This document shows positions 1,008-48,476 of a DNA stretch of 64,000 nucleotides, piece by piece. A program made the translations under genes and the position numbers. The stretch is from Candidatus Limnocylindria bacterium (GTDB lineage: Bacteria > Chloroflexota > Limnocylindria > QHBO01): NCBI GenBank assembly GCA_036397815.1, contig DASWIE010000030.1:3272-67271 (forward strand), in the 5' to 3' direction. Under the pieces are notes generated by a model, which had not been told where the DNA came from, ran no database searches, and was given only the letters and a program-made list of their open reading frames with translations. Numbering within the stretch: position 1 is the stretch's first letter; each line of letters starts with the position of its first letter.

Positions 1008-4490
<3,483 letters not shown>

Positions 4491-4521
4491 TCGGGGAAGC
4501 GGCGCCGAGAAGGCGCCGCGA

Positions 4522-4536
4522 CCCACCCATCGGTCC
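4522..4536 (+). repeat. Copy A of the dispersed intergenic motif CCCACCCATCGGTCC (core CCCATCGGTCC), 76 nt upstream of rpoC
   Basis: Exact 11-nt core shared with copies at about 9062 (reverse complement), 55636 and 63848. Confidence 0.55.
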
Positions 4537-4612
4537 ATTGCCTGCCGGGGCCTGGTCAGCCCTGGCGTCCCGAGCCAGATGCGGCGTCAGCCGCAGGAGT
4601 CGTAAGCCGCTC

Positions 4613-9040
<4,428 letters not shown>

Positions 9041-37969: not shown

Positions 37970-39099
37970 GCCACCCGACACTTACACGCAGCCCACACCG
38001 CGCGTGGGTCGAGGTCGACCACGCCGCGATCGTCGACAACCTGGCCGTGCTGCGGCGCCTCGCCGGCCCGGGCAAGCAGGTGATCGCGGTGGTGAAGGCC
38101 AACGCCTACGGCCACGGCGCCGTCGCGGTGGCTCACACGCTGCTCACGGCCGGAGCCGAGCGCCTGGCGGTCGCGACCCTGCCCGAGGCGCTGGAGCTGC
38201 GTGGCGCGGGCATCGACGCTCCCATCACGGTGCTGTGGGGGATCGGCGAGCCTGAGGCAGCGGCGACGGCAGCCGCCGGACTGGAGCCGATCGTGTACGA
38301 CCCTGCCGGGATCGATCGCGTCGAGCGGGCCGCGGCGGCCACCGGCGGGCGGGCATCGGTCCAGCTCAAGATCGACTCCGGGCTCGGCCGCCAGGGTGCC
38401 GACCCGGCCGATGCCGTCGAGCTCGGGCTGCGCATCGTCCGCAGCCGCCACCTGCAGCTGACCGGCACCTTCAGCCACCTGGCGATCCCCGGCGAGGACG
38501 ATGCCTACACCGACGTGCAGCTGTTGCAGCTGGCGCGGGCGCTCGATGCGATGCGATCTGCCGGGATCGATCCGGGCCTGGTCCACGTGGCGGCCACCGG
38601 AGGGATCCTGGCCGCGGCCGGGGGCTTTGCCGATGCCGTGCGCCCCGGCCTGGGGCTGTACGGGCTGGTGCCCGGCTGGGCGTCCGCCCGTGATCACGGC
38701 CTGCGCCCGGCACTGTCGTTGAAGGCCCTCCCGCTGCGCATCTTCGATCTGGCGGCCGGAGCGCCGATCGGCTATGGGCTGCGCTTCCGTGCCGAGCGCG
38801 CGACGCGGATCGCCACGCTGGGGATCGGCTACGGCGACGGCTGGCCACGTGCCCACGCCAACAATGGCCGGGTGCTCGTGCGTGGACGCCTGGCACCAAT
38901 CGTCGGGGCGATCAGCATGGACGGGATCACCGTCGATCTGGGTCAGAACGATGATGTAACCTACGACGACGAGTTCGTCCTGATCGGCGAGCAGATGGGC
39001 GCGCTCATCTCGGCCGATGAGGTCGCTGCGGAGCGACGCACCATCAACTACGAAGTGACGACCGCCCTCCGCGACCGGCTCCCTCGCCTTCACCTGTAG
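37966..39099 (+). CDS. alr: Alanine racemase
   Basis: AWVEVD..AI..N......LAG......AVVKANAYGHGAV.VA, C-terminal GRVSMD...VD. GTGA overlap with the preceding gene. Confidence 0.93.
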   Translation: MSHPTLTRSPHRAWVEVDHAAIVDNLAVLRRLAGPGKQVIAVVKANAYGHGAVAVAHTLLTAGAERLAVATLPEALELRGAGIDAPITVLWGIGEPEAAATAAAGLEPIVYDPAGIDRVERAAAATGGRASVQLKIDSGLGRQGADPADAVELGLRIVRSRHLQLTGTFSHLAIPGEDDAYTDVQLLQLARALDAMRSAGIDPGLVHVAATGGILAAAGGFADAVRPGLGLYGLVPGWASARDHGLRPALSLKALPLRIFDLAAGAPIGYGLRFRAERATRIATLGIGYGDGWPRAHANNGRVLVRGRLAPIVGAISMDGITVDLGQNDDVTYDDEFVLIGEQMGALISADEVAAERRTINYEVTTALRDRLPRLHL

Positions 39100-39144
39100 G
39101 CCGAGGCGCTCTTCGCGGAGACCGGGGCGTCGAGCGAGCGGAGA

Positions 39145-39675
39145 ATGGCTGTCCCGATGGAGATCGACGTCTGGCAGGGGGAGATCGCCGAGCTCGAGGT
39201 CGACGCCCTGATCGTGCCGGCGACCGAGAGCCTGTTCATGACGATCCCGGTCGCCCGCGCCGTGAAGCGCCGCTCGGGTGAGAGCGTGGAGCGCGACGCC
39301 GTCGAGCAGGGACCGATCGAGGCCGGATCCGCGGTGGTCACCTCCGGCGGAGACCTGGCTGCTCCCTACATCATCCACGCCGTCGCGGTTGGCCATGACA
39401 ACCGGCCCGATGCCGATCGCGTGAGACGCGCCATCCACGCGGCCTTCGAGATCGCCGCCAGGCTGGGGCTGCACCGGCTGGCGACCGCGCCGATCGGGGT
39501 CGACCGCGGGGTCTTCAGCCCCGAAGAGGGAGCGGCCCTGATGGCCGAGGTGCTCGCCTCCCGTTCGAGCTCGGGAGACTCCCTGCCATCCTCGCTGGTG
39601 GTCGCCGTCATTAGCCCGAGCGAGGCGACCGCGTATCGCGCAACCCTGGAGCCGCTGCGAACCGTGCGCCGATGA
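39145..39675 (+). CDS. Divergent macro-domain-like protein (ADP-ribose binding/processing fold)
   Basis: EVDALIVPATESL...TSGGDLAAPYIIHAVAV resembles the macro-domain core (VDAIVNAAN...GGGV...T.AG.L.AKYVIH). The NAAN and Gly-rich motifs are replaced here, so the call is tentative. Confidence 0.55.
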   Translation: MAVPMEIDVWQGEIAELEVDALIVPATESLFMTIPVARAVKRRSGESVERDAVEQGPIEAGSAVVTSGGDLAAPYIIHAVAVGHDNRPDADRVRRAIHAAFEIAARLGLHRLATAPIGVDRGVFSPEEGAALMAEVLASRSSSGDSLPSSLVVAVISPSEATAYRATLEPLRTVRR

Positions 39676-39917
39676 CGGTCGACGGCACCGCCGACCTCGC
39701 GGCCGAGATCCGGCGCCGTGGCCTGGCTGCGCCGGCGCGCCTGCTGCTCGAGGCACATCGGCCCCTGCAGCCGCTGCTCGGTGACCTCGCCACCTTCGTC
39801 AGCCCGCTGCTCAGGCCGCTCCTGGGTGGCCGCGCGTCGCTGCTTGGCGCGGCATTCGGCGACGACAGCGCGATCGACCGCCTGATCGAGCAGCTCGCCG
39901 ACGCGGACGATGACTAG
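39672..39917 (+). CDS. Hypothetical 81-aa protein with an acidic C-terminus (..LADADDD)
   Basis: ATGA overlap with the upstream gene and 0-nt junction with the next. No recognisable family. Confidence 0.45.
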   Translation: MTVDGTADLAAEIRRRGLAAPARLLLEAHRPLQPLLGDLATFVSPLLRPLLGGRASLLGAAFGDDSAIDRLIEQLADADDD

Positions 39918-40760
39918 ATGCCGAACCTCGGCGAGCTGATCGGCAGCCTGGTAGCCCTGATCGGCTCGCAGGTCGCGGCATCCTCGCTGCGGCTCGGGCC
40001 ATTGCCGGCGGTGACCATCTTCTCCGTCGGGCTGGTGCTCCTCTCGCTGGTGGCTCGCCCGGCGACCCGCTGGACGACCCGCGACCTGGGTCGGCTGGCC
40101 GGGATCCCGCGCGCCATGGCCCTCGCCGCCGAGTCCGGCGCGGCGGCCGGCTTCTCCCTGGGGACGGCCGGCGTCGCGCGAGCCACATCGGCCTTCGATC
40201 GGATGCAGACGCTGGCCGCGTTACCGATCCTGGGTTTCGTCGCCCGCGCCGCGGCCAGCGCCGGTGTGCCGCTGCAGGTCACCGCGAACGATCCGGTAAC
40301 GGTCCATCTCGCCGAGGCGGTGTTGGCGGAGGCACATCGGTCCACCCAGACCCCGGAGCGAGCCGAGCGCTCCGGAGCGCAGTACCTGGGCGAAGGTCGC
40401 CCCGCGGTCGCCGGCATGACCCTGGCCGACCCATCCAGGCCAGAAGCCACCTTCGTCGCCGGCGGTCTGGCCGAGGAGTCGCTGCTCCTGTTCGAGGGAA
40501 CCCTGCCCGGCGCCTCCTGGACGAGCGTCGGCACTGCCGCCGCCTCCCAGGCTGCATCGGTACTGCTCACGGCAGAGGGAGCGCTCATCGGTCCGGAGCT
40601 CTACCAGGCTTCGAGCGATCTGCGGGCGGCGGGCCACGACCGCACGGGCGTGCTCGCCTCGAACCGGCTCATCCTGGCGGTCATCGCGGTCCTGGTCATC
40701 GGTTCCGCCTTGGCCCTTGCCGCTGGAGTCGACCTGGCCGGGCCCCTGGCAGGGCGCTGA
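39918..40760 (+). CDS. Hypothetical polytopic membrane protein (280 aa)
   Basis: Several hydrophobic helices at both termini (IGSLVALIGSQVAA, VTIFSVGLVLLSLVA, LILAVIAVLVIGSALALAAG). Its stop is contiguous with the next start. Confidence 0.55.
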   Translation: MPNLGELIGSLVALIGSQVAASSLRLGPLPAVTIFSVGLVLLSLVARPATRWTTRDLGRLAGIPRAMALAAESGAAAGFSLGTAGVARATSAFDRMQTLAALPILGFVARAAASAGVPLQVTANDPVTVHLAEAVLAEAHRSTQTPERAERSGAQYLGEGRPAVAGMTLADPSRPEATFVAGGLAEESLLLFEGTLPGASWTSVGTAAASQAASVLLTAEGALIGPELYQASSDLRAAGHDRTGVLASNRLILAVIAVLVIGSALALAAGVDLAGPLAGR

Positions 40761-40761
40761 G

Positions 40762-41379
40762 GTGCGTCGCTCGCTGCCAGGGGCGACGGTCGTCGTCGTC
40801 GGGCTGCTCCTGCTCCTCGACTACGTCATCATCAACCCGGTCCTCGCCACGCTCGCTGACCTGGTCCTCGAGCTCGTTGTCCTGCTGGCTGCGGCGGCCG
40901 CCCTGGCCGGCGGTGTCGCGCTGGTGCTGCGGCATTGGACGGAGCTGGTCGAGCGCCGCGGCAACCCGCCCGGGTCCCTCGCGCTGTTGGCCGGCTTCGC
41001 CGTGATCCTGCTGGCGGGCTTCTATCCGGGGTCCAGCGGCTCGACGGATCCCGCGGTTCGCTGGATCGTTGCCGCCCTGCTGGCTCCGCTCATCGCGGCG
41101 CTCTTCGCCCTCCTCTTCGTGTTCCTGCTGGGCGCCGCCCGACGCGGCCTGACGATCCGTACGCGAGAGGGCGCCCTGATGCTGGCGGCGGCTGCCATGG
41201 TCGTCGTCCTGCTGCTGCCACTGGGCGGCTCCGCTGGCGACTGGCTGGCCAGCGCCGCCGACTGGACCCTGTCGGTGCCGATCGGCGGGGCATTTCGCGG
41301 GCTGCTGATCGGCGTCGCGATCGTGACCGCGGTTCACGCCGCGCGGGTCCTCCTGGCCGTGAACGGCGCCGAGGAATGA
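40762..41379 (+). CDS. Hypothetical polytopic membrane protein (about 205 aa, about 6 TM)
   Basis: Hydrophobic throughout (VVVVGLLLLLDYVIINPVLATLADLVLELVVLLAAAAALAGGVALVL...). GTG start at 40762 just after the upstream stop; the track ORF starts at 40717. Confidence 0.55.
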   Translation: MRRSLPGATVVVVGLLLLLDYVIINPVLATLADLVLELVVLLAAAAALAGGVALVLRHWTELVERRGNPPGSLALLAGFAVILLAGFYPGSSGSTDPAVRWIVAALLAPLIAALFALLFVFLLGAARRGLTIRTREGALMLAAAAMVVVLLLPLGGSAGDWLASAADWTLSVPIGGAFRGLLIGVAIVTAVHAARVLLAVNGAEE

Positions 41380-42392
41380 CCGATCGTACGACGCGCCGAT
41401 CCTCGCGCGCGGGGTTTGCCCCGCTGGCCCTTGTCGTCCTCCTCGGAGGGGCGGTGCTCCTGCGCCCGGGTGACGATGGGGGGCCGCTGCTCCTGGCGAA
41501 CCCGGATCGCACCCGCGTCGCGGAGCTGCAGGCCGCGTTCGCCGCACTCCCCGAGGCGCCACTGGTGCTCGTCGGCCTGGACGCCGACCTTGGCACCTAT
41601 CCCGAGATTCGGGTGGCAGTGCGCGCGGCCTTCGCCGACCTGCTGGCACGCGACGCACGGCTTGCCGTTGTCAGCTTCACGCCGGAGGGCCGCGCGATCG
41701 CCAGCGCCGAGCTCGATCGACTGCAGCGCGATGGATTCGGCGGGGACGAGCTCCTGGACCTCGGATTCATCGCTGGCGCCGAGGCGGGCATGGTGCGGTC
41801 GGTGACGGCTCTGCTGCCGGTCGGGGTCGAAGGCTCCGTGGCCGATGCCATCCGCGAGGCGGATGCCGGGATGGGGGCCTTCCAGCTGGTGCTCGTCGTC
41901 GGCGGCGGCGAGCTGGGGCCGCGGACCTGGGTCGAACAGGTCGGCACCCGACTGCCGAGCCTGCCGATTGCCGCGATCGTGCCCACCTTCGCGCAGCCTG
42001 AGGTTGCCCCATACCTGCGCACCGGCCAGCTGGTCGCGCTGCTCGCCACCCTGCGCGACGACGCGGCGTACGCCGCCGACGTCGGCGGTGCCCAGGCGGC
42101 TCCCGAGCGGGTCCCGAGCGCGCTGGCGATGCTTCTCGGCATGCTCGTCGCGCTCGGCGCGCTGGGGCGTGCCGTGACGGCTGGCCTGTGGGGTGTCGGG
42201 CCGGCACCAGCCGACGGGGCGGGGCCATCCAGCCGACGCCGGCGCGGCGGCCGCGAGGCCGATATCGCGACGGATGCAGGCCCCACAGAGGCGGACGCTG
42301 CGGCTGAGCCGGAGGCCGGCTCCGAAGCCGCCACCGCCGCCGACGTCGCGGAGCCTGCCTCGGGCGCCGAGCCGGAGGGCAACGCGCGGTGA
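41376..42392 (+). CDS. Hypothetical bitopic/2-TM protein with a large extracytoplasmic domain and an acidic C-terminal tail (338 aa)
   Basis: N-terminal anchor FAPLALVVLLGGAVLL, second TM LAMLLGMLVALGALGRAVTAGLWGV, tail EADAAAEPEAGSEAATAADVAEPASGAEPEG. ATGA overlap with the upstream gene; the track ORF 40935 is a different N-terminus in the same frame. Confidence 0.55.
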   Translation: MTDRTTRRSSRAGFAPLALVVLLGGAVLLRPGDDGGPLLLANPDRTRVAELQAAFAALPEAPLVLVGLDADLGTYPEIRVAVRAAFADLLARDARLAVVSFTPEGRAIASAELDRLQRDGFGGDELLDLGFIAGAEAGMVRSVTALLPVGVEGSVADAIREADAGMGAFQLVLVVGGGELGPRTWVEQVGTRLPSLPIAAIVPTFAQPEVAPYLRTGQLVALLATLRDDAAYAADVGGAQAAPERVPSALAMLLGMLVALGALGRAVTAGLWGVGPAPADGAGPSSRRRRGGREADIATDAGPTEADAAAEPEAGSEAATAADVAEPASGAEPEGNAR

Positions 42393-43030
42393 GCGGATTC
42401 CTCGGTACCGACCTCGCCGGCGTGATCGCCACCTGGGTGGCGGCGCTCGTCACCATCGTGGTCTGGTCATACCTCCTTGGTGAGCGCCGCCCCTTTCGCC
42501 TCGCGCAGCACCTGCTCGCCGGGCTGGCGACCGGCTATCTCGTCCTGCTGGCGGTGCGCGAGGTCCTGCTGCCGCGTCTGCTCGAGCCGCTGGCCCGGGA
42601 TCCAGCCGCCAACGTGCTGCTCCTTCCGGCGCTCGCCATGGTCGGGGCGTTGGCCGGCGCGCGCTGGTTGCCGCGGCAGGTCGTGGCACTCCCGGTTGCG
42701 GTGCTGGTCGGCGCGACGACGGCTTTCGCGCTCGGCGGCGCGGTTGTCGGGACGCTGCTCCCGCAGCTGGCGGCGAGCGTCCTCCGCCCGGGCACGGCGC
42801 TGACGGTGGTCAACGGCCTCATCGGTCTGGTGATCACGGGCCTGGTGGTTCTCGGCTTCCTGCACGGCGTGCCGCGCGGTCGGATCACGGGTGTGGCGGC
42901 CGGCGCCGGGCGCTGGCTGCTGATCGGTGCCATCGGCGGCTGGCTCGGCTTCCTCCTCGTCAGCCGGTTGGCGCTGCTGGTCGACAGGCTGGGCTTCCTG
43001 CTCGGCGACTGGCTGGGGCAGGCGCGATGA
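42389..43030 (+). CDS. Hypothetical polytopic membrane protein (213 aa, about 6 TM)
   Basis: GTGA overlap at its start and ATGA overlap at its end. Uniformly hydrophobic helices. Confidence 0.55.
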   Translation: MSGFLGTDLAGVIATWVAALVTIVVWSYLLGERRPFRLAQHLLAGLATGYLVLLAVREVLLPRLLEPLARDPAANVLLLPALAMVGALAGARWLPRQVVALPVAVLVGATTAFALGGAVVGTLLPQLAASVLRPGTALTVVNGLIGLVITGLVVLGFLHGVPRGRITGVAAGAGRWLLIGAIGGWLGFLLVSRLALLVDRLGFLLGDWLGQAR

Positions 43031-44718
43031 CCATGGAAGGGCCGGTCGCCGGGTTGCTGCCCTCGCCGAGCAAGCGGCCCGGGCCGGCGGCTGAGCTGTC
43101 GCTGCTGGTGGACGTCGGCTCCGCCTGGACGAAGGCCGTCGTGGTGGCGCGCGCGCGCGGGCGTTGGCGGATCGCCGGACATGCGGCTCAACCGAGCGCC
43201 TGGGGCGAGGAGGAGCTCGTGAACGCGCTGGTCGCGCGCCTGGCCGAGGGCGCGGACCGGCGCGTGGCGGACCGCCTGGCGGAGCTCCTGGGGACCGCCC
43301 CCCGAATCGCCTGTCATACGCCACGACGCGCGGGGCGCATCGGGCTCGCCGCCATCTCCGCGGAGCTTTCAGGAGCCTCCGCGCGTCGTGCGGCGGAGTC
43401 TGCCGGCTGGACGGTCGCCGAGGCGGCGACGGCCGATGACGGCCGCTCGCTCGTCGATCGCCTCTCAGCGCTCCAGGCTGCCGACGTGGACGCCTGGCTG
43501 CTGGCGGGTGGCTTCGACCACGGGCGGGCCGGCCAGGCGCTGGAGATGGCGGGCCTGGTCGCGGCGGCACGGGGTGCATCCCGAACTCCGGTGCTGTGGG
43601 CGGGATCCGCTGCCCTCGCGGATGAGGTCGCCACGCTCTTCGAGCCGGGTGCCCTGCAGACGGTCGCCAACCCGCGGCCGTCGGCGACCGAGGAGGATCT
43701 CGTCCCGCTGCGCCACACGCTCGAAGGCCTGCTGCAGCAGCTCGTGGAGCCGGGCGGCGTTCGGCAGCTGACGCCGGTCTCATTCCGTCGCGCCGTCGCC
43801 GAGCTCGCGCGTTCGACCGAGCGCCGAGTCCTGGGCGTCGACCTGGGCGCCCGCTACGCCAGCTGGGTGCTCGCCGACGCGGATGGGACCGCGGAGAGCC
43901 GGGTCTTCGCCGAGGGCGGGCTATCGGCCTCGAGCCTGGTCGGGCCGGGCGGTCCGGCGCGCCTTGCGAGGTTGCTTCCGCTGGCGATCGACGAGCTGGC
44001 GGTGGCCGATGCGCTGCAGAACCTGCGCGCCCGGCCGGGCACCCTGCCGCAGACCGAGGACGAGCTCGCGATCATGCACGGTGCGGCTCGTCAGCTGCTG
44101 GCGCAGGGAGCGGCCGACGAGGGAGCGATCTCGGGCATCGACCTGCTCATCGGGTCGGGGCGCACGCTGGCCGCGGCACCACGGCCCGGCCAGGCGGCCC
44201 AACTGCTGCTCGACGGCGTGCGCCCGCTCGGGGTCACTGAGCTGGCGATCGACGCCGCCGGCGCGCTGCCGCCGCTCGGTGCGCTGGACGACGCCGAGAT
44301 CCGAGAGGGGATGGGCATGCTCCGAGATGACCTCCTCACGCCGCTCGGCGCCGCCGTCGTCTGTCGCGGCGGCCATCCTGGGCAGGTGGTGATGCGCGTG
44401 ACCGTCCATCGGGCTGGATGGCCCACCACGGGCCCGGTCGAGCTGCGCAGCGGGCAGCTGCAGCTGCTGCCCCTCGGACGGGGCCAGTCGGCTGAGCTCG
44501 AGATCGAGCTCGAAGCCGGCGTGACGCTGGGGGGGCCACGACGCGCGCGGCGCGCCCAGGTGACGGTCACCGGTGGGGCGCTGGGGCTGATCCTCGACGC
44601 GCGAGAGGTCCCGCTGTCAATGCCGCGTCGCGCCGACGACCGTCGTGCCGTGCTCGCCGGTTGGCGCGATGCCTTCGCCCGCGAGCCCTCGACACCGGTG
44701 CCCGGAGACCAGCCGTGA
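43027..44718 (+). CDS. Hypothetical 563-aa cytoplasmic protein with ASKHA (actin/Hsp70/sugar-kinase)-like nucleotide-binding motifs
   Basis: N-terminal LLVDVGSAWTKAVVV resembles phosphate-1 motifs of ASKHA ATPases (D.GS..TK, as in the GlmL/MutL-like, BadF/BcrAD-activase and FtsA/PilM families). A second VLGVDLGARYASWVLAD motif lies at about residue 270. No family could be assigned by eye. Confidence 0.55.
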   Translation: MTMEGPVAGLLPSPSKRPGPAAELSLLVDVGSAWTKAVVVARARGRWRIAGHAAQPSAWGEEELVNALVARLAEGADRRVADRLAELLGTAPRIACHTPRRAGRIGLAAISAELSGASARRAAESAGWTVAEAATADDGRSLVDRLSALQAADVDAWLLAGGFDHGRAGQALEMAGLVAAARGASRTPVLWAGSAALADEVATLFEPGALQTVANPRPSATEEDLVPLRHTLEGLLQQLVEPGGVRQLTPVSFRRAVAELARSTERRVLGVDLGARYASWVLADADGTAESRVFAEGGLSASSLVGPGGPARLARLLPLAIDELAVADALQNLRARPGTLPQTEDELAIMHGAARQLLAQGAADEGAISGIDLLIGSGRTLAAAPRPGQAAQLLLDGVRPLGVTELAIDAAGALPPLGALDDAEIREGMGMLRDDLLTPLGAAVVCRGGHPGQVVMRVTVHRAGWPTTGPVELRSGQLQLLPLGRGQSAELEIELEAGVTLGGPRRARRAQVTVTGGALGLILDAREVPLSMPRRADDRRAVLAGWRDAFAREPSTPVPGDQP

Positions 44719-45758
44719 ACGGGCCGGCGCTGCACCGGGTGCGCGTGCCGCGTGGCACCGTGCCGAGCGTCATGGTCGGCAGCGACGTCGCTCCCGACCA
44801 GGTGCTCGGTCTCCATCGGCGGCCAGGCCCCGCCGTACGGGTCCAGCTGGCGACGAAGCTGCGCGTGCGATCCGATGCCGTCTCGGCCCTGCTCCTGGTC
44901 CGGCCGGGCACCCGCCTGGCGGAGGGCGACGCGATCGCGCGAGGTGCCGACGGACGCGAGGCACGCGCGCCGACGGGCGGCCTGCTGCTGGGCGTGTCGG
45001 CGATCGACGGTACTGCTCTGCTTGCGCCGCTCGGGCCCGAGGAGCCGGTCATCGGCCATGTGCATGGCCGCATTCGCGCGGTGGAGGACGGGGCCATCAC
45101 GGTCGAGGTCCCCGGCGCCCTGGTGCGGGGCGTTGGGGGCACGGGCGAGGCGGTCCACGGCGAGCTGGTGGTCGCCGTCCACGATCCCGGCGAAGAGCTC
45201 AGGGCGGCGGCAATCGACGTGGGCGCGACTGGCAGGATCCTGGTGGGCGGGTCGCGCGCCTCGGCCGAGACCCTCACGCGGGCACGCGCCATGGGGGTGG
45301 CGGGGATCGTGCTCGGCGGGGTGCTGGACAAGGAGCTGCGCGACTTCGAGGCCATCCAGCGTCGCCGTCGGGAGGTTGGAGGCCTGGTCGGCGCGTTCGG
45401 AGTGCTGCTGCTGGAGGGGTTCGGCAAGGTAGGCATCGACCCGCAGCGCTTCGGATGGTTCAAGGCTCATGCCGGTCGGATGGCCAGCCTGTTCGGCACC
45501 GATGGGCTCCTGTACGTCTACGACGCCGAACCCGCGCCGGGACGCCGGACGCTGCCGCGCGTCGGCGAGCGGGTGATCGCGCACCGCCGCCCGTTCCAGG
45601 GACGCGCCGGCGTGCTGGTGGCGGAGCTGGATGACCTGCACGCGACGCCATCGGGCATCGCCACCAGGATGGGCCTGGTCCGTTTCGAGGACGGACGGCT
45701 GGCGCCCGTGCCGCTCGCCAATCTGGAGGCCACCCTGCCGGTGCCCCCCAGCGCCTGA
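44715..45758 (+). CDS. Hypothetical 347-aa protein with a C-terminal KOW-like motif
   Basis: C-terminal GERVIAHRRPFQGRAGVLVAELDD...RMGLVRFEDGRLAPVPLANLE resembles the KOW motif of NusG/L24. Mid-region RPGTRLAEGDAIARG...GGLLLGV resembles a barrel-sandwich (lipoyl/biotinyl-like) hairpin. GTG at 44715 overlaps the upstream stop (track ORF from 44661). Confidence 0.5.
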   Translation: MNGPALHRVRVPRGTVPSVMVGSDVAPDQVLGLHRRPGPAVRVQLATKLRVRSDAVSALLLVRPGTRLAEGDAIARGADGREARAPTGGLLLGVSAIDGTALLAPLGPEEPVIGHVHGRIRAVEDGAITVEVPGALVRGVGGTGEAVHGELVVAVHDPGEELRAAAIDVGATGRILVGGSRASAETLTRARAMGVAGIVLGGVLDKELRDFEAIQRRRREVGGLVGAFGVLLLEGFGKVGIDPQRFGWFKAHAGRMASLFGTDGLLYVYDAEPAPGRRTLPRVGERVIAHRRPFQGRAGVLVAELDDLHATPSGIATRMGLVRFEDGRLAPVPLANLEATLPVPPSA

Positions 45759-45776
45759 CCCGTATCCTTCTCGCTC

Positions 45777-46268
45777 ATGGACCGATTCACAGCGGCAGCG
45801 CCGAGCTCCGGCGCGCTGCGAAGCGACTCGCCGCAGCACACCCGGGCCCTCGGACGCGCGATCGGCACGCGGGCCAGGCCGGGAATCGTGCTGGCACTGG
45901 TCGGGCCGCTCGGCGCCGGCAAGACGCAGCTGGCCAAGGGGGTCGCCGACGGGCTCGACGTCACCACCGTCGTCAACAGCCCCACCTTTGTGCTCATGAA
46001 CGAGCATGTCGGCCGGCTGCGCCTCTTCCATGTCGACGCGTACCGCCTCGACGACCCGGGGGAGGCGCTGGCGGTCGGCCTCTTCGACGAGCGCCAGGCC
46101 GAGGGCGTGACCGTGGTGGAGTGGGCGGATCGCCTGGATGGCTGGCTGCCCCTGGAGCGCATCGACCTCTGGATCGAGCCTGATGCCGCCGGCGAGGACG
46201 TTCGCGCCATCCGCTGGGCTGCCCACGGCGACGCGCATGCGGCGCTGGCGGCGGAGGCGCTGCGATGA
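45777..46268 (+). CDS. tsaE: tRNA threonylcarbamoyladenosine biosynthesis protein TsaE
   Basis: Walker A LVGPLGAGKTQLAKG, then VVNSPTFVLMNEH..........HVDAYRL. Confidence 0.88.
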   Translation: MDRFTAAAPSSGALRSDSPQHTRALGRAIGTRARPGIVLALVGPLGAGKTQLAKGVADGLDVTTVVNSPTFVLMNEHVGRLRLFHVDAYRLDDPGEALAVGLFDERQAEGVTVVEWADRLDGWLPLERIDLWIEPDAAGEDVRAIRWAAHGDAHAALAAEALR

Positions 46269-46906
46269 TCGTCGCCGTCGAATCCGCGTCGACCGACCTC
46301 TCGGTCGCTACAGCCGCCGAGGACGGCGAGCTGCTGGCCATCGATGGCTGGCGCTCCGCCGGACGTGGCGCGCACGAGCTGCTGCCACACCTCCTCGCCC
46401 TGCTGGCTGGCGGCGGTCATCGGCTCGACCAGGCCACGGCGTTCGCCGTCGGCATCGGACCGGGCTCCTTCACCGGCCTGCGGGTCGGCATGAGCCTGGC
46501 GAAGGGCATGGCGCTCGCTCTCGGGCGCCCGATCGTCGGCGTGCCGAGCCTGGAGGCGTGGTTGGCGGCCGATCCTGGGGCCCCGGCGGCGATCGCCCGG
46601 GCCGGCGCCCGCGAGGCGTACCTCCTGCTGCGGGGGGAGACGCGACCCCGCATCGTCGACCGCGACGAGCTCCCCTTGCAGTCCGGCGTGGCGGCCGTCG
46701 CGGCACCGGGTGAGCTCGCCGAGGCGTTCGGCCTCGCCGGGGCAACGCCTCCAACCAGAGCGGCGGCTGCGGTCGCTGCGCTCGCGGCCGCGCGGCTGGC
46801 CTCGAATCCCGCCGGCGACGATCTCGCCCGCCTCGAACCGGCCTACCTGCGCCAACCCCGGGGCCTGGGACAGCTGGCACATGCCGAGGCCACGCCATGG
46901 CCGTGA
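46265..46906 (+). CDS. tsaB: tRNA threonylcarbamoyladenosine biosynthesis protein TsaB
   Basis: M.VA.E.AS...SVA.........., FAVGIGPGSFTGLRVG...AKG.ALALG.P..GV.SLEA. Confidence 0.88.
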   Translation: MIVAVESASTDLSVATAAEDGELLAIDGWRSAGRGAHELLPHLLALLAGGGHRLDQATAFAVGIGPGSFTGLRVGMSLAKGMALALGRPIVGVPSLEAWLAADPGAPAAIARAGAREAYLLLRGETRPRIVDRDELPLQSGVAAVAAPGELAEAFGLAGATPPTRAAAAVAALAAARLASNPAGDDLARLEPAYLRQPRGLGQLAHAEATPWP

Positions 46907-47433
46907 GCCTGCCGCTGACGGTCGAGGCCATGCGAACGAGCGACATCGAAGCGGTGCACGAGATCGAGCGCCTCAGCTTCAGCACGCCGTGGCCGTCGTA
47001 CGCGTTCGAGCAGGAGCTGACCGGCAATCGGCTGGCGCGGTACATCGTGGCCCGCGCGGCCGCACCCGACGGCGAGCGGATCGTCGGTTTCGCGGGCGTC
47101 TGGCTGATGGTCGACGAGGCGCACATCACCACCTTCGGGGTCCATCCCGATTGGCGGCGGCGTGGTGTTGGCCGTCGACTGCTGCTGCGACTTGCCGACC
47201 TGGCCCGGGAGCTTGGAGCGGCGCGCATGACGCTGGAGGTGCGGGTCGGCAACGACGCGGCAAAGGCCCTCTATCGCTCCTTCGGCTTCACCGTTGCCGG
47301 CAGGCGTCCCCGCTACTACACCGACGACGGGGAGGACGCGTACGTGATGAGCACCACGGACCTCGTCGAGCCGGAGATGCAGGCGGTGCTCCGTGCCGAA
47401 CGCGAGCGGCAGGCGGCGGAGGAGGCCTCGTAG
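46897..47433 (+). CDS. rimI: Ribosomal-protein-alanine N-acetyltransferase RimI (GNAT)
   Basis: DI.AV.EIE...F..PW.......EL......Y.VA......, ...GFAG.W.MVDEAHITT..VHPDWRRRGVGR.LL..L...A.E.GA.RMTLEVR..N..A..LY...GF. Sits between tsaB and tsaD. Confidence 0.88.
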   Translation: MAVSLPLTVEAMRTSDIEAVHEIERLSFSTPWPSYAFEQELTGNRLARYIVARAAAPDGERIVGFAGVWLMVDEAHITTFGVHPDWRRRGVGRRLLLRLADLARELGAARMTLEVRVGNDAAKALYRSFGFTVAGRRPRYYTDDGEDAYVMSTTDLVEPEMQAVLRAERERQAAEEAS

Positions 47434-48476
47434 TGGCTGCCCCGCGGATCCTGGCGATCGAGACGAGCTGCGACGAGACCGGCGTGGCGGTGGTGGTCGG
47501 CGGACGTCGGATCGAGGCGAACCAGGTGGCGACCCAGATCGCGCTGCATGCCGAGACGGGCGGGATCGTGCCCGAGGTCGCCGCCCGCCAGCAGCTGCGC
47601 TGGATCGTCCCAACCATCGAGGCCGCCCTGGCCGAGGCCGGCATGGGCTGGACCGATCTCGACGCGCTGGCCGTGACCTGCGGTCCCGGGTTGATCGGCT
47701 CCCTGCTGGTGGGCGTCAACGTCGGCAAGGCCGTCTCGGCAGCACGTGACCTGCCGCTCGTCGCGGTCAACCACCTCGAAGGCCACATCTACGCCAACTG
47801 GTTGACCGATGCCCCCGCCGCGGAGCCACTTCCGCCGGAGCCGCCCTTCCCGCTGCTCTGCCTGGTGGTGAGCGGCGGGCACACCCAGCTGATCCTGATG
47901 GAGGACCACGGCCAATACCTGCTGCTCGGCCAGACGGTCGACGACGCCGCCGGCGAGGCGTTCGACAAGGTCGGCCGATTGCTTGGCCTGCCGTATCCTG
48001 GCGGGCCGGCGATCTCCACGGCGGCCGAAGGGGCGCAGCCGGCGACCCGCTTTCCGCGGGCGCGGACCGATGGCCGCTACGACTTCAGCTTCAGCGGCCT
48101 GAAGACGGCCGTGCTGCGGGCCGTGGCCGGCTATCGCGAGCGCGGTGAGCCGCTCCCGGTCGACGGGCTTGCAGCGGCGTTCGAGGAGGCCGTCGTCGAC
48201 GCGCTGACCGCGAAGACGGTGGCGGCCGCGGAGGAGCATGGCGTCGCCGCGGTGGCGCTCGGCGGCGGCGTGGCGGCCAACCGCGCCCTGCGCGCCGCGC
48301 TGCGCGAGCGGCTCGCGGTCGCCGGCGTCCCGCTGCTGGTGCCGCCGCCGGCCTGGTGCACGGACAACGGCGCGATGATCGGCGCCGCAGCCGGCTACCG
48401 CTTCGCGGCGGGCGACCGGGCCGACGCGTCGCTCGAGGCGACCCCGAACCTGGCGCTGCCCTGGCTCGACCGATGA
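47433..48476 (+). CDS. tsaD: tRNA N6-adenosine threonylcarbamoyltransferase TsaD (Kae1/YgjD family)
   Basis: ILAIETSCDETGVAVV, ...LAVTCGPGLIGSLLVGVNVGKAV..A.DLPLVAVNHLEGHI, LL.VSGGHTQL, VALGGGVAAN..LR. GTG at 47433 overlaps the rimI stop (taGtg); the track ORF 46710 extends upstream in frame. Confidence 0.92.
   Translation: MAAPRILAIETSCDETGVAVVVGGRRIEANQVATQIALHAETGGIVPEVAARQQLRWIVPTIEAALAEAGMGWTDLDALAVTCGPGLIGSLLVGVNVGKAVSAARDLPLVAVNHLEGHIYANWLTDAPAAEPLPPEPPFPLLCLVVSGGHTQLILMEDHGQYLLLGQTVDDAAGEAFDKVGRLLGLPYPGGPAISTAAEGAQPATRFPRARTDGRYDFSFSGLKTAVLRAVAGYRERGEPLPVDGLAAAFEEAVVDALTAKTVAAAEEHGVAAVALGGGVAANRALRAALRERLAVAGVPLLVPPPAWCTDNGAMIGAAAGYRFAAGDRADASLEATPNLALPWLDR

What the first reader, a model, noticed from the sequence alone, without database searches (positions are those of the whole stretch)
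39145..45758. Eight-gene, tightly coupled operon of uncharacterised proteins between alr and tsaE: a candidate new membrane-associated system
Eight co-directional ORFs are linked by stop/start overlaps or zero-nt junctions (at 39672, 39917/39918, 40760/40762, 41376, 42389, 43027 and 44715). That pattern implies one transcription unit and stoichiometric co-expression. The set comprises a divergent macro-like domain, a small acidic protein, three polytopic membrane proteins, a 2-TM protein with a large extracytoplasmic domain and acidic tail, a 563-aa ASKHA-like putative ATPase, and a KOW-motif protein. I could not map this combination onto any described secretion, division, pilus or transport system. 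It sits inside a block of universally conserved housekeeping genes, which suggests a core rather than accessory role.
Basis: partly seen in the sequence, partly recalled or inferred. Interest (0 to 1): 0.8.

Follow-up and report, generated by a model that had tools for sequence, protein, structure and literature searches.

The report
Uncharacterised seven-protein membrane machine with ATPase
The eight genes are real, and seven of them form a gene set conserved across several bacterial phyla: five membrane-associated proteins plus an actin/Hsp70-fold ATPase and its partner, matching no described system and of unknown function.

Summary
Eight co-directional genes (39145-45758) have the stated overlaps and normal codon bias, in a Candidatus Limnocylindria (Chloroflexota) MAG.

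Only three match Pfam: g1 Macro, g3 DUF6754, and g7 MutL/GlmL (an ASKHA ATPase).

Seven genes, g2-g8, recur in the same order in about 70-80 of 80 Anaerolineae genomes, out of at least 571 matching loci. All seven also occur in a 35%-GC marine lineage, reordered and with g7 and g8 fused into one 995-aa protein. A Candidatus Ozemobacteraceae contig carries g6-g2-g7::g8. Bacillota have only the g7+g8 pair, with other partners. The macro gene is a Limnocylindria-only addition.

Predicted structures:
- g8 has a barrel-sandwich hybrid domain, a low-confidence swivelling-type domain and a KOW/SH3-like domain.
- g3 has a TM hairpin, a generic Rossmann-like domain and a C-terminal TM helix.

No defence, phage, PDB-sequence or literature match identifies the system.

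Best reading: a new membrane complex in which a reactivase-like ATPase module (g7+g8) acts on a membrane platform (g2-g6), perhaps for envelope transport or assembly. The complex is well supported. The function is inferred.

Two points need correcting. The position between alr and tsaE is lineage-specific, and tight gene coupling is general in this window.

The parts
39145..39675 (+). g1: divergent macro-domain protein (176 aa). It is coupled to the operon by an ATGA overlap but is lineage-specific, not part of the conserved system.
   Evidence: Pfam Macro E 6.5e-13, 49.1 bits against a cutoff of 22. All NCBIfam equivalog scores are far below their cutoffs. A homolog is found next to the cluster only in Limnocylindria locus L001. 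By eye against the macro consensus recalled from memory, not aligned here, the usual N..GGG ADP-ribose loop is not recognisable (IVPATESLFMTIPVARAV).
39672..39917 (+). g2: small acidic protein (81 aa, pI 4.6). No Pfam family. Conserved first gene of the system.
   Evidence: No Pfam or NCBIfam hit. An iterative search finds it directly upstream of g3 in 70 of 82 loci. Homologs: 109 aa in L083 (E 1.2e-9) and 87 aa in L086 (E 1.5e-4).
39918..40760 (+). g3: DUF6754 protein (280 aa). N-terminal TM hairpin, Rossmann-like alpha/beta domain, C-terminal TM helix. The only Pfam-defined family among the membrane subunits.
40762..41379 (+). g4: six-TM membrane protein (205 aa, basic). Conserved C-terminal motif GARGxLLGxALG..GLR.L.G.DRPY. 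No known family.
   Evidence: Hydropathy. Alignment A8. No consistent Pfam family in 22 orthologs. PDB profile: only a non-significant match to the CorA TM region, E 0.17. Not homologous to g6. Weak internal-repeat signal, hhalign probability 27%.
41376..42392 (+). g5: bitopic or two-TM protein (338 aa). N-terminal TM, a domain of about 210 aa placed outside the cell by topology, second TM, acidic low-complexity tail.
   Evidence: Hydropathy: TM at 10-32 and 245-271. Alignment A7. No Pfam or PDB hit. In Anaerolineae the ortholog is about 800 aa, with an N-terminal zinc ribbon and a long acidic PDWL-repeat region before the TM. The L083 ortholog is 293 aa (E 4.6e-37).
42389..43030 (+). g6: six-TM membrane protein (213 aa, pI 11.7). 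Conserved motifs SY..GDN.LFR and VG.GAA.A.GGA..GT..PQ. No known family.
   Evidence: Hydropathy. Alignment A9. No Pfam family. No PDB match. Present in 81 of 82 loci, in L083 (E 3.3e-40) and in L086 (E 3.1e-40).
43027..44718 (+). g7: ASKHA-fold ATPase of the MutL/GlmL family (563 aa), with a C-terminal extension (about 430-555) outside the Pfam MutL match.
   Evidence: Pfam MutL E 1.1e-27, 97.4 bits against a cutoff of 27, residues 26-428. NCBIfam GlmL scores 40 bits against a cutoff of 475, so it is not a GlmL equivalog. 1062 50%-identity clusters at E<1e-3, many about 575-610 aa and covering the C-terminal extension. Motifs DVGSAWTK, VDLGARY and IGSGRTLAAAP. No solved relative by sequence.
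44715..45758 (+). g8: partner of g7 (347 aa). N-terminal barrel-sandwich-hybrid/beta domain, central swivelling beta/beta/alpha-type domain (low model confidence), C-terminal KOW/SH3-like domain.

Best explanation
g2-g8 encode a previously undescribed multi-subunit membrane complex.

The proposed membrane platform has five parts:
- two unrelated six-TM proteins, g4 and g6;
- g3 (DUF6754), whose Rossmann-like domain is held at the membrane by helices at both ends and probably faces the cytoplasm;
- g5, which places an alpha/beta-type domain outside the cell between two TM helices;
- the small protein g2.

A cytoplasmic two-protein module would dock on this platform. g7 is an ASKHA-fold ATPase of the GlmL/MutL family. 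g8 carries barrel-sandwich, swivelling-type and KOW/SH3-like domains.

Together g7 and g8 hold the same two kinds of domain as DdrA, the diol-dehydratase reactivase large subunit: an ASKHA ATPase plus a swivelling domain. DdrA is thought to use ATP to force a conformational change in a partner protein (recalled knowledge). I propose that g7+g8 work the same way on the membrane subunits, driving transport or assembly of something at or across the membrane, most plausibly a cell-envelope component.

Shown: the genes are real, linked, widely conserved as a set and fused or rearranged elsewhere, and the folds above are predicted.

Inferred: physical complex formation, ATP use, topology, and the transport or assembly role.

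g1 (macro) is a Limnocylindria-specific passenger or regulator.
For: Real genes: GC3 0.84-0.90 and exact overlaps.

Synteny:
- Limnocylindria.
- g2-g8 in the same order in Anaerolineae, including cultured Bellilinea caldifistulae. Of 82 loci in total, 70, 71, 72, 80, 81, 82 and 81 carry g2, g3, g4, g5, g6, g7 and g8. The gaps are mostly explained by contig ends.

Independent arrangement in a marine lineage: g2, then a g7::g8 fusion, then g3-g4-g5-g6. HMM E-values are 1e-9 for g2 and 1e-34 to 1e-70 for the rest.

Ca. Ozemobacteraceae: g6-g2-g7::g8.

The g7+g8 pair is also adjacent in Bacillota without g2-g6. This marks it as a separable module.

Family and folds: MutL family membership of g7; g8 folds; g3 fold; TM predictions.

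Weak envelope-flavoured neighbours:
- Wzz/GNVR gene overlapping the fusion by 4 nt in L086.
- PIG-L upstream in Bellilinea L004, and a phosphohexomutase-like gene, identified by eye and not domain-scanned, downstream in 61 Anaerolineae loci.
- CdsA and a lipid kinase in L083.
- ybbR, a phosphohexomutase (glmM-like), a SIS-domain gene (glmS-like) and alr upstream in Limnocylindria.
Against: - No experiment and no complex prediction. Interaction of any two subunits is inferred only from gene linkage and one fusion.
- The swivelling-domain call rests on the least confident part of the g8 model, pLDDT 34-55.
- The second phosphate motif of g7 is degenerate in Limnocylindria (VDLGARY against DIGGATTD in the fusion proteins), so ATPase activity may be weak.
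- No ASKHA-powered transporter is known (recalled knowledge).
- Neighbour genes differ between lineages, so the envelope link is only suggestive.
Confidence: 0.55

Rival explanations
1. Scaffold or cytoskeletal complex rather than a motor-driven transporter. On this reading g7 acts like PilM, FtsA or MreB: an actin-fold protein that binds nucleotide mainly for structure, or polymerises, and organises bitopic and polytopic membrane partners. Those partners (g5, g4/g6) would be analogous to PilN/PilO or MreC/MreD, and the complex would position envelope synthesis or a surface structure.
For: Comparison with the PilMNO and MreBCD subunit layouts, recalled from memory:
- An ASKHA protein is encoded with a two-TM ectodomain protein (g5) and six-TM proteins (g4, g6).
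- Anaerolineae g5 has a long cytoplasmic zinc-ribbon and repeat tail that could be a docking peptide.
- The degenerate phosphate-2 motif in g7 fits a structural nucleotide role.
Against: - Pfam scans of g1-g8 at E<=1 list no PilM, PilN, PilO, MreB, MreC, MreD or FtsA family.
- g7 belongs to the GlmL/MutL branch, for which I know of no report of polymerisation (recalled knowledge).
- The obligate g8 partner and the Bacillota versions without membrane partners fit a soluble ATP-driven module better.
Confidence: 0.2
2. A cobalamin-related function. As a GlmL relative, g7 with g8 would reactivate or load a B12-dependent enzyme, and the membrane proteins would handle cobalamin trafficking or anchor the enzyme.
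For: - g7 is in the MutL/GlmL family.
- The g7+g8 domain repertoire resembles DdrA.
- In about 20 of the 80 Anaerolineae loci, genes that look like a methylmalonyl-CoA mutase B12-binding subunit and a MeaB-type GTPase lie divergently upstream. They were identified by eye from the translations; no domain search was run.
Against: - No mutase or other B12 enzyme gene lies in or beside the cluster in Limnocylindria, the marine lineage, Ozemobacteraceae or the Bacillota variants.
- The g7 score for the GlmL equivalog is 40 bits against a cutoff of 475.
- The MCM/MeaB neighbours are on the opposite strand and in only about a quarter of loci, which is typical of clade-level synteny.
Confidence: 0.1
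3. Not one system. The eight genes would be unrelated functions packed together in a compact, co-directional genome, and the overlaps would reflect genome streamlining only.
For: Overlaps and tiny gaps are also found between unrelated flanking housekeeping genes, and nearly the whole window is co-directional. For g1 this reading is right, since it is not conserved with the rest.
Against: g2-g8 stay together over very large evolutionary distances. This holds despite 20-30% identity to the window proteins, a changed gene order, a gene fusion and completely different flanking genes.
Confidence: 0.03
4. An accessory defence or mobile-element module. The macro domain would suggest ADP-ribosylation conflict systems.
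For: Macro domains occur in toxin-antitoxin and anti-phage contexts (general knowledge), and g1 is translationally coupled to g2.
Against: - No PADLOC or PHROGs family for any of the eight proteins, apart from weak chance-level g4 hits.
- Composition matches the surrounding genes.
- Position is fixed within Limnocylindria.
- The set is present in at least 571 loci of a one-genome-per-species collection.
- No integrase or transposase is among the genes listed next to the cluster in L001, L002, L083 or L086.
Confidence: 0.03

Closest known systems
GlmL/MutL (glutamate mutase accessory protein), with EutA and DdrA-DdrB reactivases of B12 enzymes as functional analogues
   Different: - No B12 enzyme partner.
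- g7 has an extra C-terminal extension outside the Pfam MutL match.
- It scores far below the GlmL equivalog cutoff.
- It is encoded with five membrane-associated proteins. I know of no reactivase with such partners (recalled knowledge).
PilM-PilN-PilO (type IV pilus alignment complex) and MreB-MreC-MreD
   Same: By recalled knowledge of those systems, the overall logic is shared: a cytoplasmic actin-fold protein encoded with bitopic ectodomain proteins and small polytopic membrane proteins in one operon.
   Different: No sequence family is shared. There is no pilin, secretin or PBP/RodA gene in the cluster. g7 is from a different ASKHA branch and needs the g8 partner.
RnfC / NqrA peripheral subunits of the Rnf and Nqr membrane complexes
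   Different: - g8 has no cysteine, so it has no Fe-S clusters.
- Pfam finds no domain at all in g8, hence no NADH- or FMN-binding domain.
- g4 and g6 give no Rnf/Nqr family hit.
- The resemblance is limited to one common fold.
RCK/KTN (TrkA-N) regulatory domains of K+ transporters

Membership tests
Pfam MutL (PF13941; GlmL family ASKHA ATPases) - g7 | Sequence match above the Pfam gathering score | tested here: met
   97.4 bits against a cutoff of 27, E 1.1e-27, residues 26-428.
GlmL proper (methylaspartate mutase accessory protein, NF040745) - g7 | Score above the equivalog cutoff, and location with glutamate mutase glmS/glmE genes | tested here: not met
   40 bits against a cutoff of 475. 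The neighbours are membrane proteins, alr and tsaE, with no mutase genes.
ASKHA ATPases - g7 | Phosphate-1, phosphate-2 and adenosine motifs | tested here: inconclusive
   DVGSAWTK and IGSG are present. Phosphate-2 is VDLGARY, with D272 and G274 invariant across the family but without the GGATTD seen in the fusion proteins. Activity was not testable.
Pfam DUF6754 (PF20539) - g3 | Sequence match above the gathering score | tested here: met
   66.6 bits against a cutoff of 27. Orthologs score 92 bits.
Macro domain (PF01661) - g1 | Sequence match above the gathering score | tested here: met
   49.1 bits against a cutoff of 22.
O-acetyl-ADP-ribose deacetylase / ADP-ribose-binding macro equivalogs - g1 | Equivalog score, and the Gly-rich ADP-ribose-binding loop | tested here: not met
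   Best score is 75.5 bits against a cutoff of 246. The sequence has IVPATESLFMTIPVARAV where, from the macro consensus as I recall it, the N-x6-GGG-V loop would be expected. No reference alignment was made, so the loop assessment is by eye.
KOW motif (PF00467) - g8 C-terminus | Pfam match, or the KOW/SH3-like fold | tested here: inconclusive
PEP-utilising-enzyme mobile (phosphohistidine) domain - g8 centre | Pfam PEP-utilizers match and a conserved phospho-acceptor histidine | tested here: not met
RnfC / NqrA - g8 | Barrel-sandwich N-domain plus NADH/FMN and Fe-S domains (RnfC), with Rnf/Nqr membrane subunits | tested here: not met
   Only the barrel-sandwich fold matches. g8 has no cysteine. 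g4 and g6 have no Rnf/Nqr family hits.
Type IV pilus PilMNO, MreBCD, FtsA | PilM, MreB or FtsA family ATPase together with PilN/PilO or MreC/MreD families | tested here: not met
   None of these families appears in the Pfam scans of g1-g8 at E<=1.
ABC or other known primary transporters | ABC ATPase, P-type or other known energising domain together with a permease family | tested here: not met
   No such Pfam or NCBIfam hits for any of the eight proteins.
Known anti-phage defence systems (PADLOC-DB) | A match to any PADLOC model | tested here: not met
   No hits at E<=0.1.

The most novel reading that the evidence does not exclude
g2-g8 define a new class of membrane machine energised by an ASKHA (actin/Hsp70-fold) ATPase of the reactivase type instead of an ABC, AAA+ or P-type motor. 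It is conserved across Chloroflexota and at least two other lineages, and it performs a core envelope transport or assembly step. The g7+g8 pair would be a portable 'conformational crowbar' module that plugs into different partners: membrane proteins here, and M1-peptidase-like proteins in Bacillota.
Probability: 0.3. Interest if true: 0.85.

Novelty: categorically new. Interest (0 to 1): 0.68.

Why it matters
The set was found in at least 571 loci of a one-genome-per-species collection (the 80 loci inspected are all Chloroflexota), in a marine lineage and in an Ozemobacteraceae genome. Five of its seven proteins have no Pfam family, and the searchable literature does not mention it.

If it is a membrane machine driven by a GlmL-type ASKHA ATPase, that would add a new way of coupling ATP to a membrane process. 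It would also give the widespread but unexplained 'glutamate mutase L' annotations outside glutamate fermenters a function.

Chloroflexota cell biology and envelope architecture are poorly understood. A conserved envelope-associated complex would be a concrete target for study. Cultured carriers exist for experiments: Bellilinea caldifistulae for the full set, and Clostridium sp. 'deep sea' for the g7+g8 pair.

Even if the function turns out to be modest, the gene set is a well-defined family-of-families that could be curated.

Tried and rejected
Searches that found nothing useful:
- Pfam, NCBIfam, PHROGs and PADLOC on all eight proteins gave only Macro, DUF6754 and MutL.
- Profile searches against PDB sequences for g3, g4, g5, g6, g7 and g8 gave nothing significant. 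The best were a lipoyl domain at E 0.86 for g8 and the CorA TM region at E 0.17 for g4.
- Per-member Pfam scans of 22-23 orthologs of g4 and g6 gave no consistent family.
- Literature searches for DUF6754, TIGR01319, PF13941+MutL, 'glutamate mutase L' and ASKHA/Chloroflexota found nothing relevant. One search was too broad to be useful.

Ideas tested and dropped:
- g4 and g6 as paralogs, like RnfA/RnfE: hhalign probability 0.4%.
- Inverted or internal repeats in g4 and g6: only a weak signal in g4, probability 27%.
- Electrostatic docking of an acidic g5 tail on a basic g8: dropped because g8 pI is not conserved (median 7.1) and the tail is absent in L083.

- A mixed Limnocylindria and Anaerolineae g7 alignment was too divergent for the genome scan, so an Anaerolineae-type alignment was used.
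- The afdb50 fold library was unavailable.

Full report
**1. What is in the sequence**

The window is about 70% G+C and almost entirely coded on the + strand.

The junctions were checked base by base:
- ATGA overlaps at 39672, 41376 and 43027.
- GTGA overlaps at 42389 and 44715.
- TAG directly followed by ATG at 39917/39918.
- TGA-G-GTG at 40760/40762.

Third-position GC is 0.84-0.90 in all eight frames, as in the neighbouring housekeeping genes. Every protein has orthologs. They are therefore real genes.

Exact look-ups place the window in an NCBI MAG named Candidatus Limnocylindria bacterium. The accessions run from HEX9634259.1 (alr) to HEX9634267.1 (g8), which fits eight genes after alr.

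Two cautions apply. Overlapping junctions also link unrelated flanking genes: nnr/alr and tsaE/tsaB overlap by 4 nt. No promoter-like or terminator-like site was found across 38800-46400. Tight coupling alone therefore says little, and the transcript may be longer than eight genes.

**2. What the proteins are**

| Gene | Size | Family or fold | Key evidence |
|---|---|---|---|
| g1 | 176 aa | Pfam Macro, divergent | 49 bits; far below every NCBIfam equivalog cutoff |
| g2 | 81 aa | none | acidic, pI 4.6 |
| g3 | 280 aa | Pfam DUF6754 | 67 bits |
| g4 | 205 aa | none | six hydrophobic segments |
| g5 | 338 aa | none | TM at 10-32 and 245-271, then an acidic tail |
| g6 | 213 aa | none | six hydrophobic segments |
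| g7 | 563 aa | Pfam MutL, the GlmL-family branch of ASKHA ATPases | 97 bits; only 40 bits against the GlmL equivalog cutoff of 475 |
| g8 | 347 aa | none | folds from a predicted structure, below |

PHROGs and PADLOC give nothing.

- g4 and g6 are not homologous to each other. No Pfam family recurs in 22-23 orthologs of each.
- The g5 ectodomain is about 210 aa and lies between the two TM segments.

Predicted structures:
- **g8** (43-sequence alignment, pLDDT 74.6) has three parts.
  - The central part matches swivelling beta/beta/alpha domains: rifampin phosphotransferase 8.8, Enzyme I 8.7, RraA 8.7 and DdrA 7.0. This lies in a low-confidence region.
  - Foldseek agrees on the KOW domain and on MccF/LdcA-type matches.
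The Bellilinea ortholog also has a sub-threshold Pfam KOW hit.
- **g3** (87 sequences, pLDDT 76.5) has a TM helical hairpin, a five-stranded alpha/beta domain and a C-terminal TM helix.
  - Positive charges follow the first TM helices. The marine ortholog also has an extra N-terminal segment before the first TM that reads like an Fn3-type domain by eye. I infer from both that the alpha/beta domain is cytoplasmic.

Profile searches of g3-g8 against all PDB sequences found no relative.

**3. Conservation, the key result**

- **Limnocylindria.** The whole arrangement from alr through the eight genes to tsaE recurs on a 2.2-Mb contig (L001) and in part on L002. g7 and g8 orthologs are 65-96% identical.
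- **Anaerolineae.**
  - An exhaustive search with g7 found 1062 clusters at 50% identity. Many are about 575-610 aa, about 30% identical, and cover the C-terminal extension as well.
  - An alignment of these retrieved at least 571 loci from a one-genome-per-species collection.
  - The best 80 are all Anaerolineae and include the cultured Bellilinea caldifistulae GOMI-1.
  - Iterative searches of the ORFs of these loci with the window proteins found the following, always in the order g2-g3-g4-g5-g6-g7-g8. The gaps are mostly explained by contig ends.

| Gene | g1 | g2 | g3 | g4 | g5 | g6 | g7 | g8 |
|---|---|---|---|---|---|---|---|---|
| Loci with a hit (of 82) | 1 | 70 | 71 | 72 | 80 | 81 | 82 | 81 |

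  - g1, alr and tsaE are not conserved with the set.
- **Marine lineage.**
  - Some g7 homologs are about 1000 aa. Their C-terminal halves are g8 homologs (BLASTP 8e-12 to 2e-19).
  - One such fusion sits on marine contigs of 35% G+C, next to a protein with a weak T9SS sorting-domain hit.
  - The order there is g2 (109 aa), g7::g8 fusion, DUF6754, g4, g5, g6. All were confirmed with HMMs: E 1e-9 for g2 and 1e-34 to 1e-70 for the others.
- **Candidatus Ozemobacteraceae.** One contig shows g6-g2-g7::g8, followed by a Wzz/GNVR gene that overlaps the fusion by 4 nt.
- **Bacillota.** The g7+g8 pair occurs without g2-g6. Partners are small membrane proteins or M1-peptidase-like proteins, and in one case the peptidase is fused to MutL.

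Seven genes kept together at 20-30% identity, with a changed order, a gene fusion and unrelated neighbours, make a functional unit very likely. They also identify g7+g8 as a separable core module.

**4. How it most likely works**

Shown:
- The gene set and its conservation.
- The family membership of g7.
- The predicted folds and TM segments.

Inferred: g4, g6, g5, g3 and g2 form a membrane platform, and g7+g8 form a cytoplasmic ATP-dependent module acting on it.

The closest mechanistic analogue is the reactivase group: GlmL, EutA and DdrA-DdrB. From established knowledge of those systems, an ASKHA ATPase with a swivelling domain uses ATP to force open a partner protein. Here g7 supplies the ASKHA domain and g8 the swivelling-type domain. 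They sit on separate chains that are fused in other phyla.

I therefore propose an ATP-driven conformational motor coupled to membrane subunits, used for transport or assembly at the membrane. A cell-envelope substrate is weakly suggested by neighbours in four lineages:
- Wzz/GNVR in Ozemobacteraceae.
- PIG-L upstream in Bellilinea, and a phosphohexomutase-like gene, identified by eye, in 61 Anaerolineae loci.
- CdsA and a lipid kinase in the marine lineage.
- ybbR, a phosphohexomutase (glmM-like), a SIS-domain gene (glmS-like) and alr in Limnocylindria.

I put about 0.75 on 'one multi-subunit membrane-associated complex with g7+g8 as its ATPase module'. I put about 0.3 on the specific 'envelope transport or assembly' role. 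The 0.55 stated for the best explanation blends the two.

Weak points:
- There is no interaction evidence beyond genomics.
- The g3 fold is generic.
- The g8 centre has low model confidence.
- The phosphate-2 motif of g7 is degenerate in Limnocylindria.

**5. Rivals**

- *PilMNO- or MreBCD-like scaffold* (0.2). It shares the operon logic but no families.
- *Cobalamin-related role* (0.1). It is suggested by the GlmL kinship and by genes that look like an MCM B12-binding subunit and MeaB in about a quarter of Anaerolineae loci. No B12 enzyme accompanies the set in the other lineages.
- *Chance co-location* (0.03). This is contradicted for g2-g8 but correct for g1.
- *Defence or mobile module* (0.03). 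There are no PADLOC hits, and the set is stable and widespread.

**6. Comparison with what is known, and novelty**

g7 is a member of Pfam MutL but not a GlmL equivalog. g3 is a member of DUF6754. g1 is a divergent macro domain. g2, g4, g5, g6 and g8 are in no Pfam family.

No paper in the searchable library mentions DUF6754, TIGR01319 or this gene set.

The set fails the membership tests for Rnf/Nqr, PilMNO, MreBCD, ABC transporters, PEP-utilising enzymes and known defence systems. As a system it corresponds to no described kind, so I rate it categorically new. Its function remains a hypothesis.

**7. Verdict**

- Three corrections apply. The conserved unit is seven genes, g2-g8, not eight. 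The housekeeping location is lineage-specific. The overlaps are not discriminating.
- Interest is 0.68. A conserved, multi-phylum machine with an unusual ATPase and no known function is worth experimental follow-up, and cultured carriers exist.

Noticed in passing
L004:6813-9308 (Bellilinea caldifistulae g5 ortholog); similar lengths in most Anaerolineae loci: The Anaerolineae g5 ortholog is about 800 aa. It has an N-terminal zinc ribbon (Pfam Zn_Ribbon_1, E 4e-4, below the gathering cutoff) followed by about 450 aa of very acidic sequence with repeated (E/D)(L/V)PDWL motifs before the TM segment. In Limnocylindria the acidic low-complexity stretch is instead at the C-terminus. By topology both tails would be cytoplasmic.
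   Followed up: partly
L004:12836-13468, and 78 of the Anaerolineae loci about 25 nt downstream of g8: A ninth co-directional gene is conserved after g8 in Anaerolineae only. It is about 200 aa, with an acidic N-terminus, a TM segment, a Thr/Pro/Ala-rich linker and a C-terminal hydrophobic segment ending in basic residues. It is absent from the window, where tsaE follows.
   Followed up: partly
About 20 Anaerolineae loci, e.g. L057:4494-4940 (-) and L047:3258-4271 (-): Genes that look like a methylmalonyl-CoA mutase B12-binding subunit and a MeaB/ArgK-type GTPase lie divergently upstream of the cluster in about a quarter of the loci. They were identified by eye from the translations. This may be clade-level synteny or a hint of a cobalamin link for the GlmL-like ATPase.
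   Followed up: partly
L085:8001-11999 and L087:1100-9430 (Bacillota): In Bacillota the MutL + g8-like pair is linked to very large peptidase-M1-domain proteins, fused in L085 and adjacent in L087. L085 carries two MutL/g8-like pairs. In Clostridium sp. 'deep sea' (L088:7938-12665) the pair is flanked by an HTH_5 protein and a 139-aa membrane protein.
   Followed up: partly
window 39145-39675 (g1): Compared by eye with the macro consensus as I recall it, the macro-domain protein lacks a recognisable N-x6-GGG ADP-ribose-binding loop. It may be a non-catalytic or re-purposed macro domain. It overlaps g2 by ATGA in this window and by 4 nt in L001.
   Followed up: partly
Proteins P0598, P0095 and P0170: Near-identical copies of the Limnocylindria g7 and g8 proteins are deposited under the names 'Candidatus Binatia bacterium' and 'candidate division Zixibacteria bacterium'. 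This is probably MAG mis-binning or mislabelling rather than real occurrence in those phyla.
   Followed up: no
window 46710-48476 and 40935-42392: The mechanically longest ORFs here are GC-driven over-extensions. 46710-48476 runs across tsaB, rimI and tsaD; the real genes are about 46265-46906, 46897-47433 and about 47430-48476, judged from L001. 40935-42392 extends g5 upstream through g4 in another frame.
   Followed up: partly
window 1-34000: From ORF sizes and order, not checked by any domain search, the upstream part of the window looks like a long co-directional block of core information-processing genes. It includes two very large ORFs at 1008-9040 (1160 and 1500 aa, rpoB/rpoC-sized) and many small ribosomal-protein-sized genes. 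This shows how compact and collinear the genome is.
   Followed up: no
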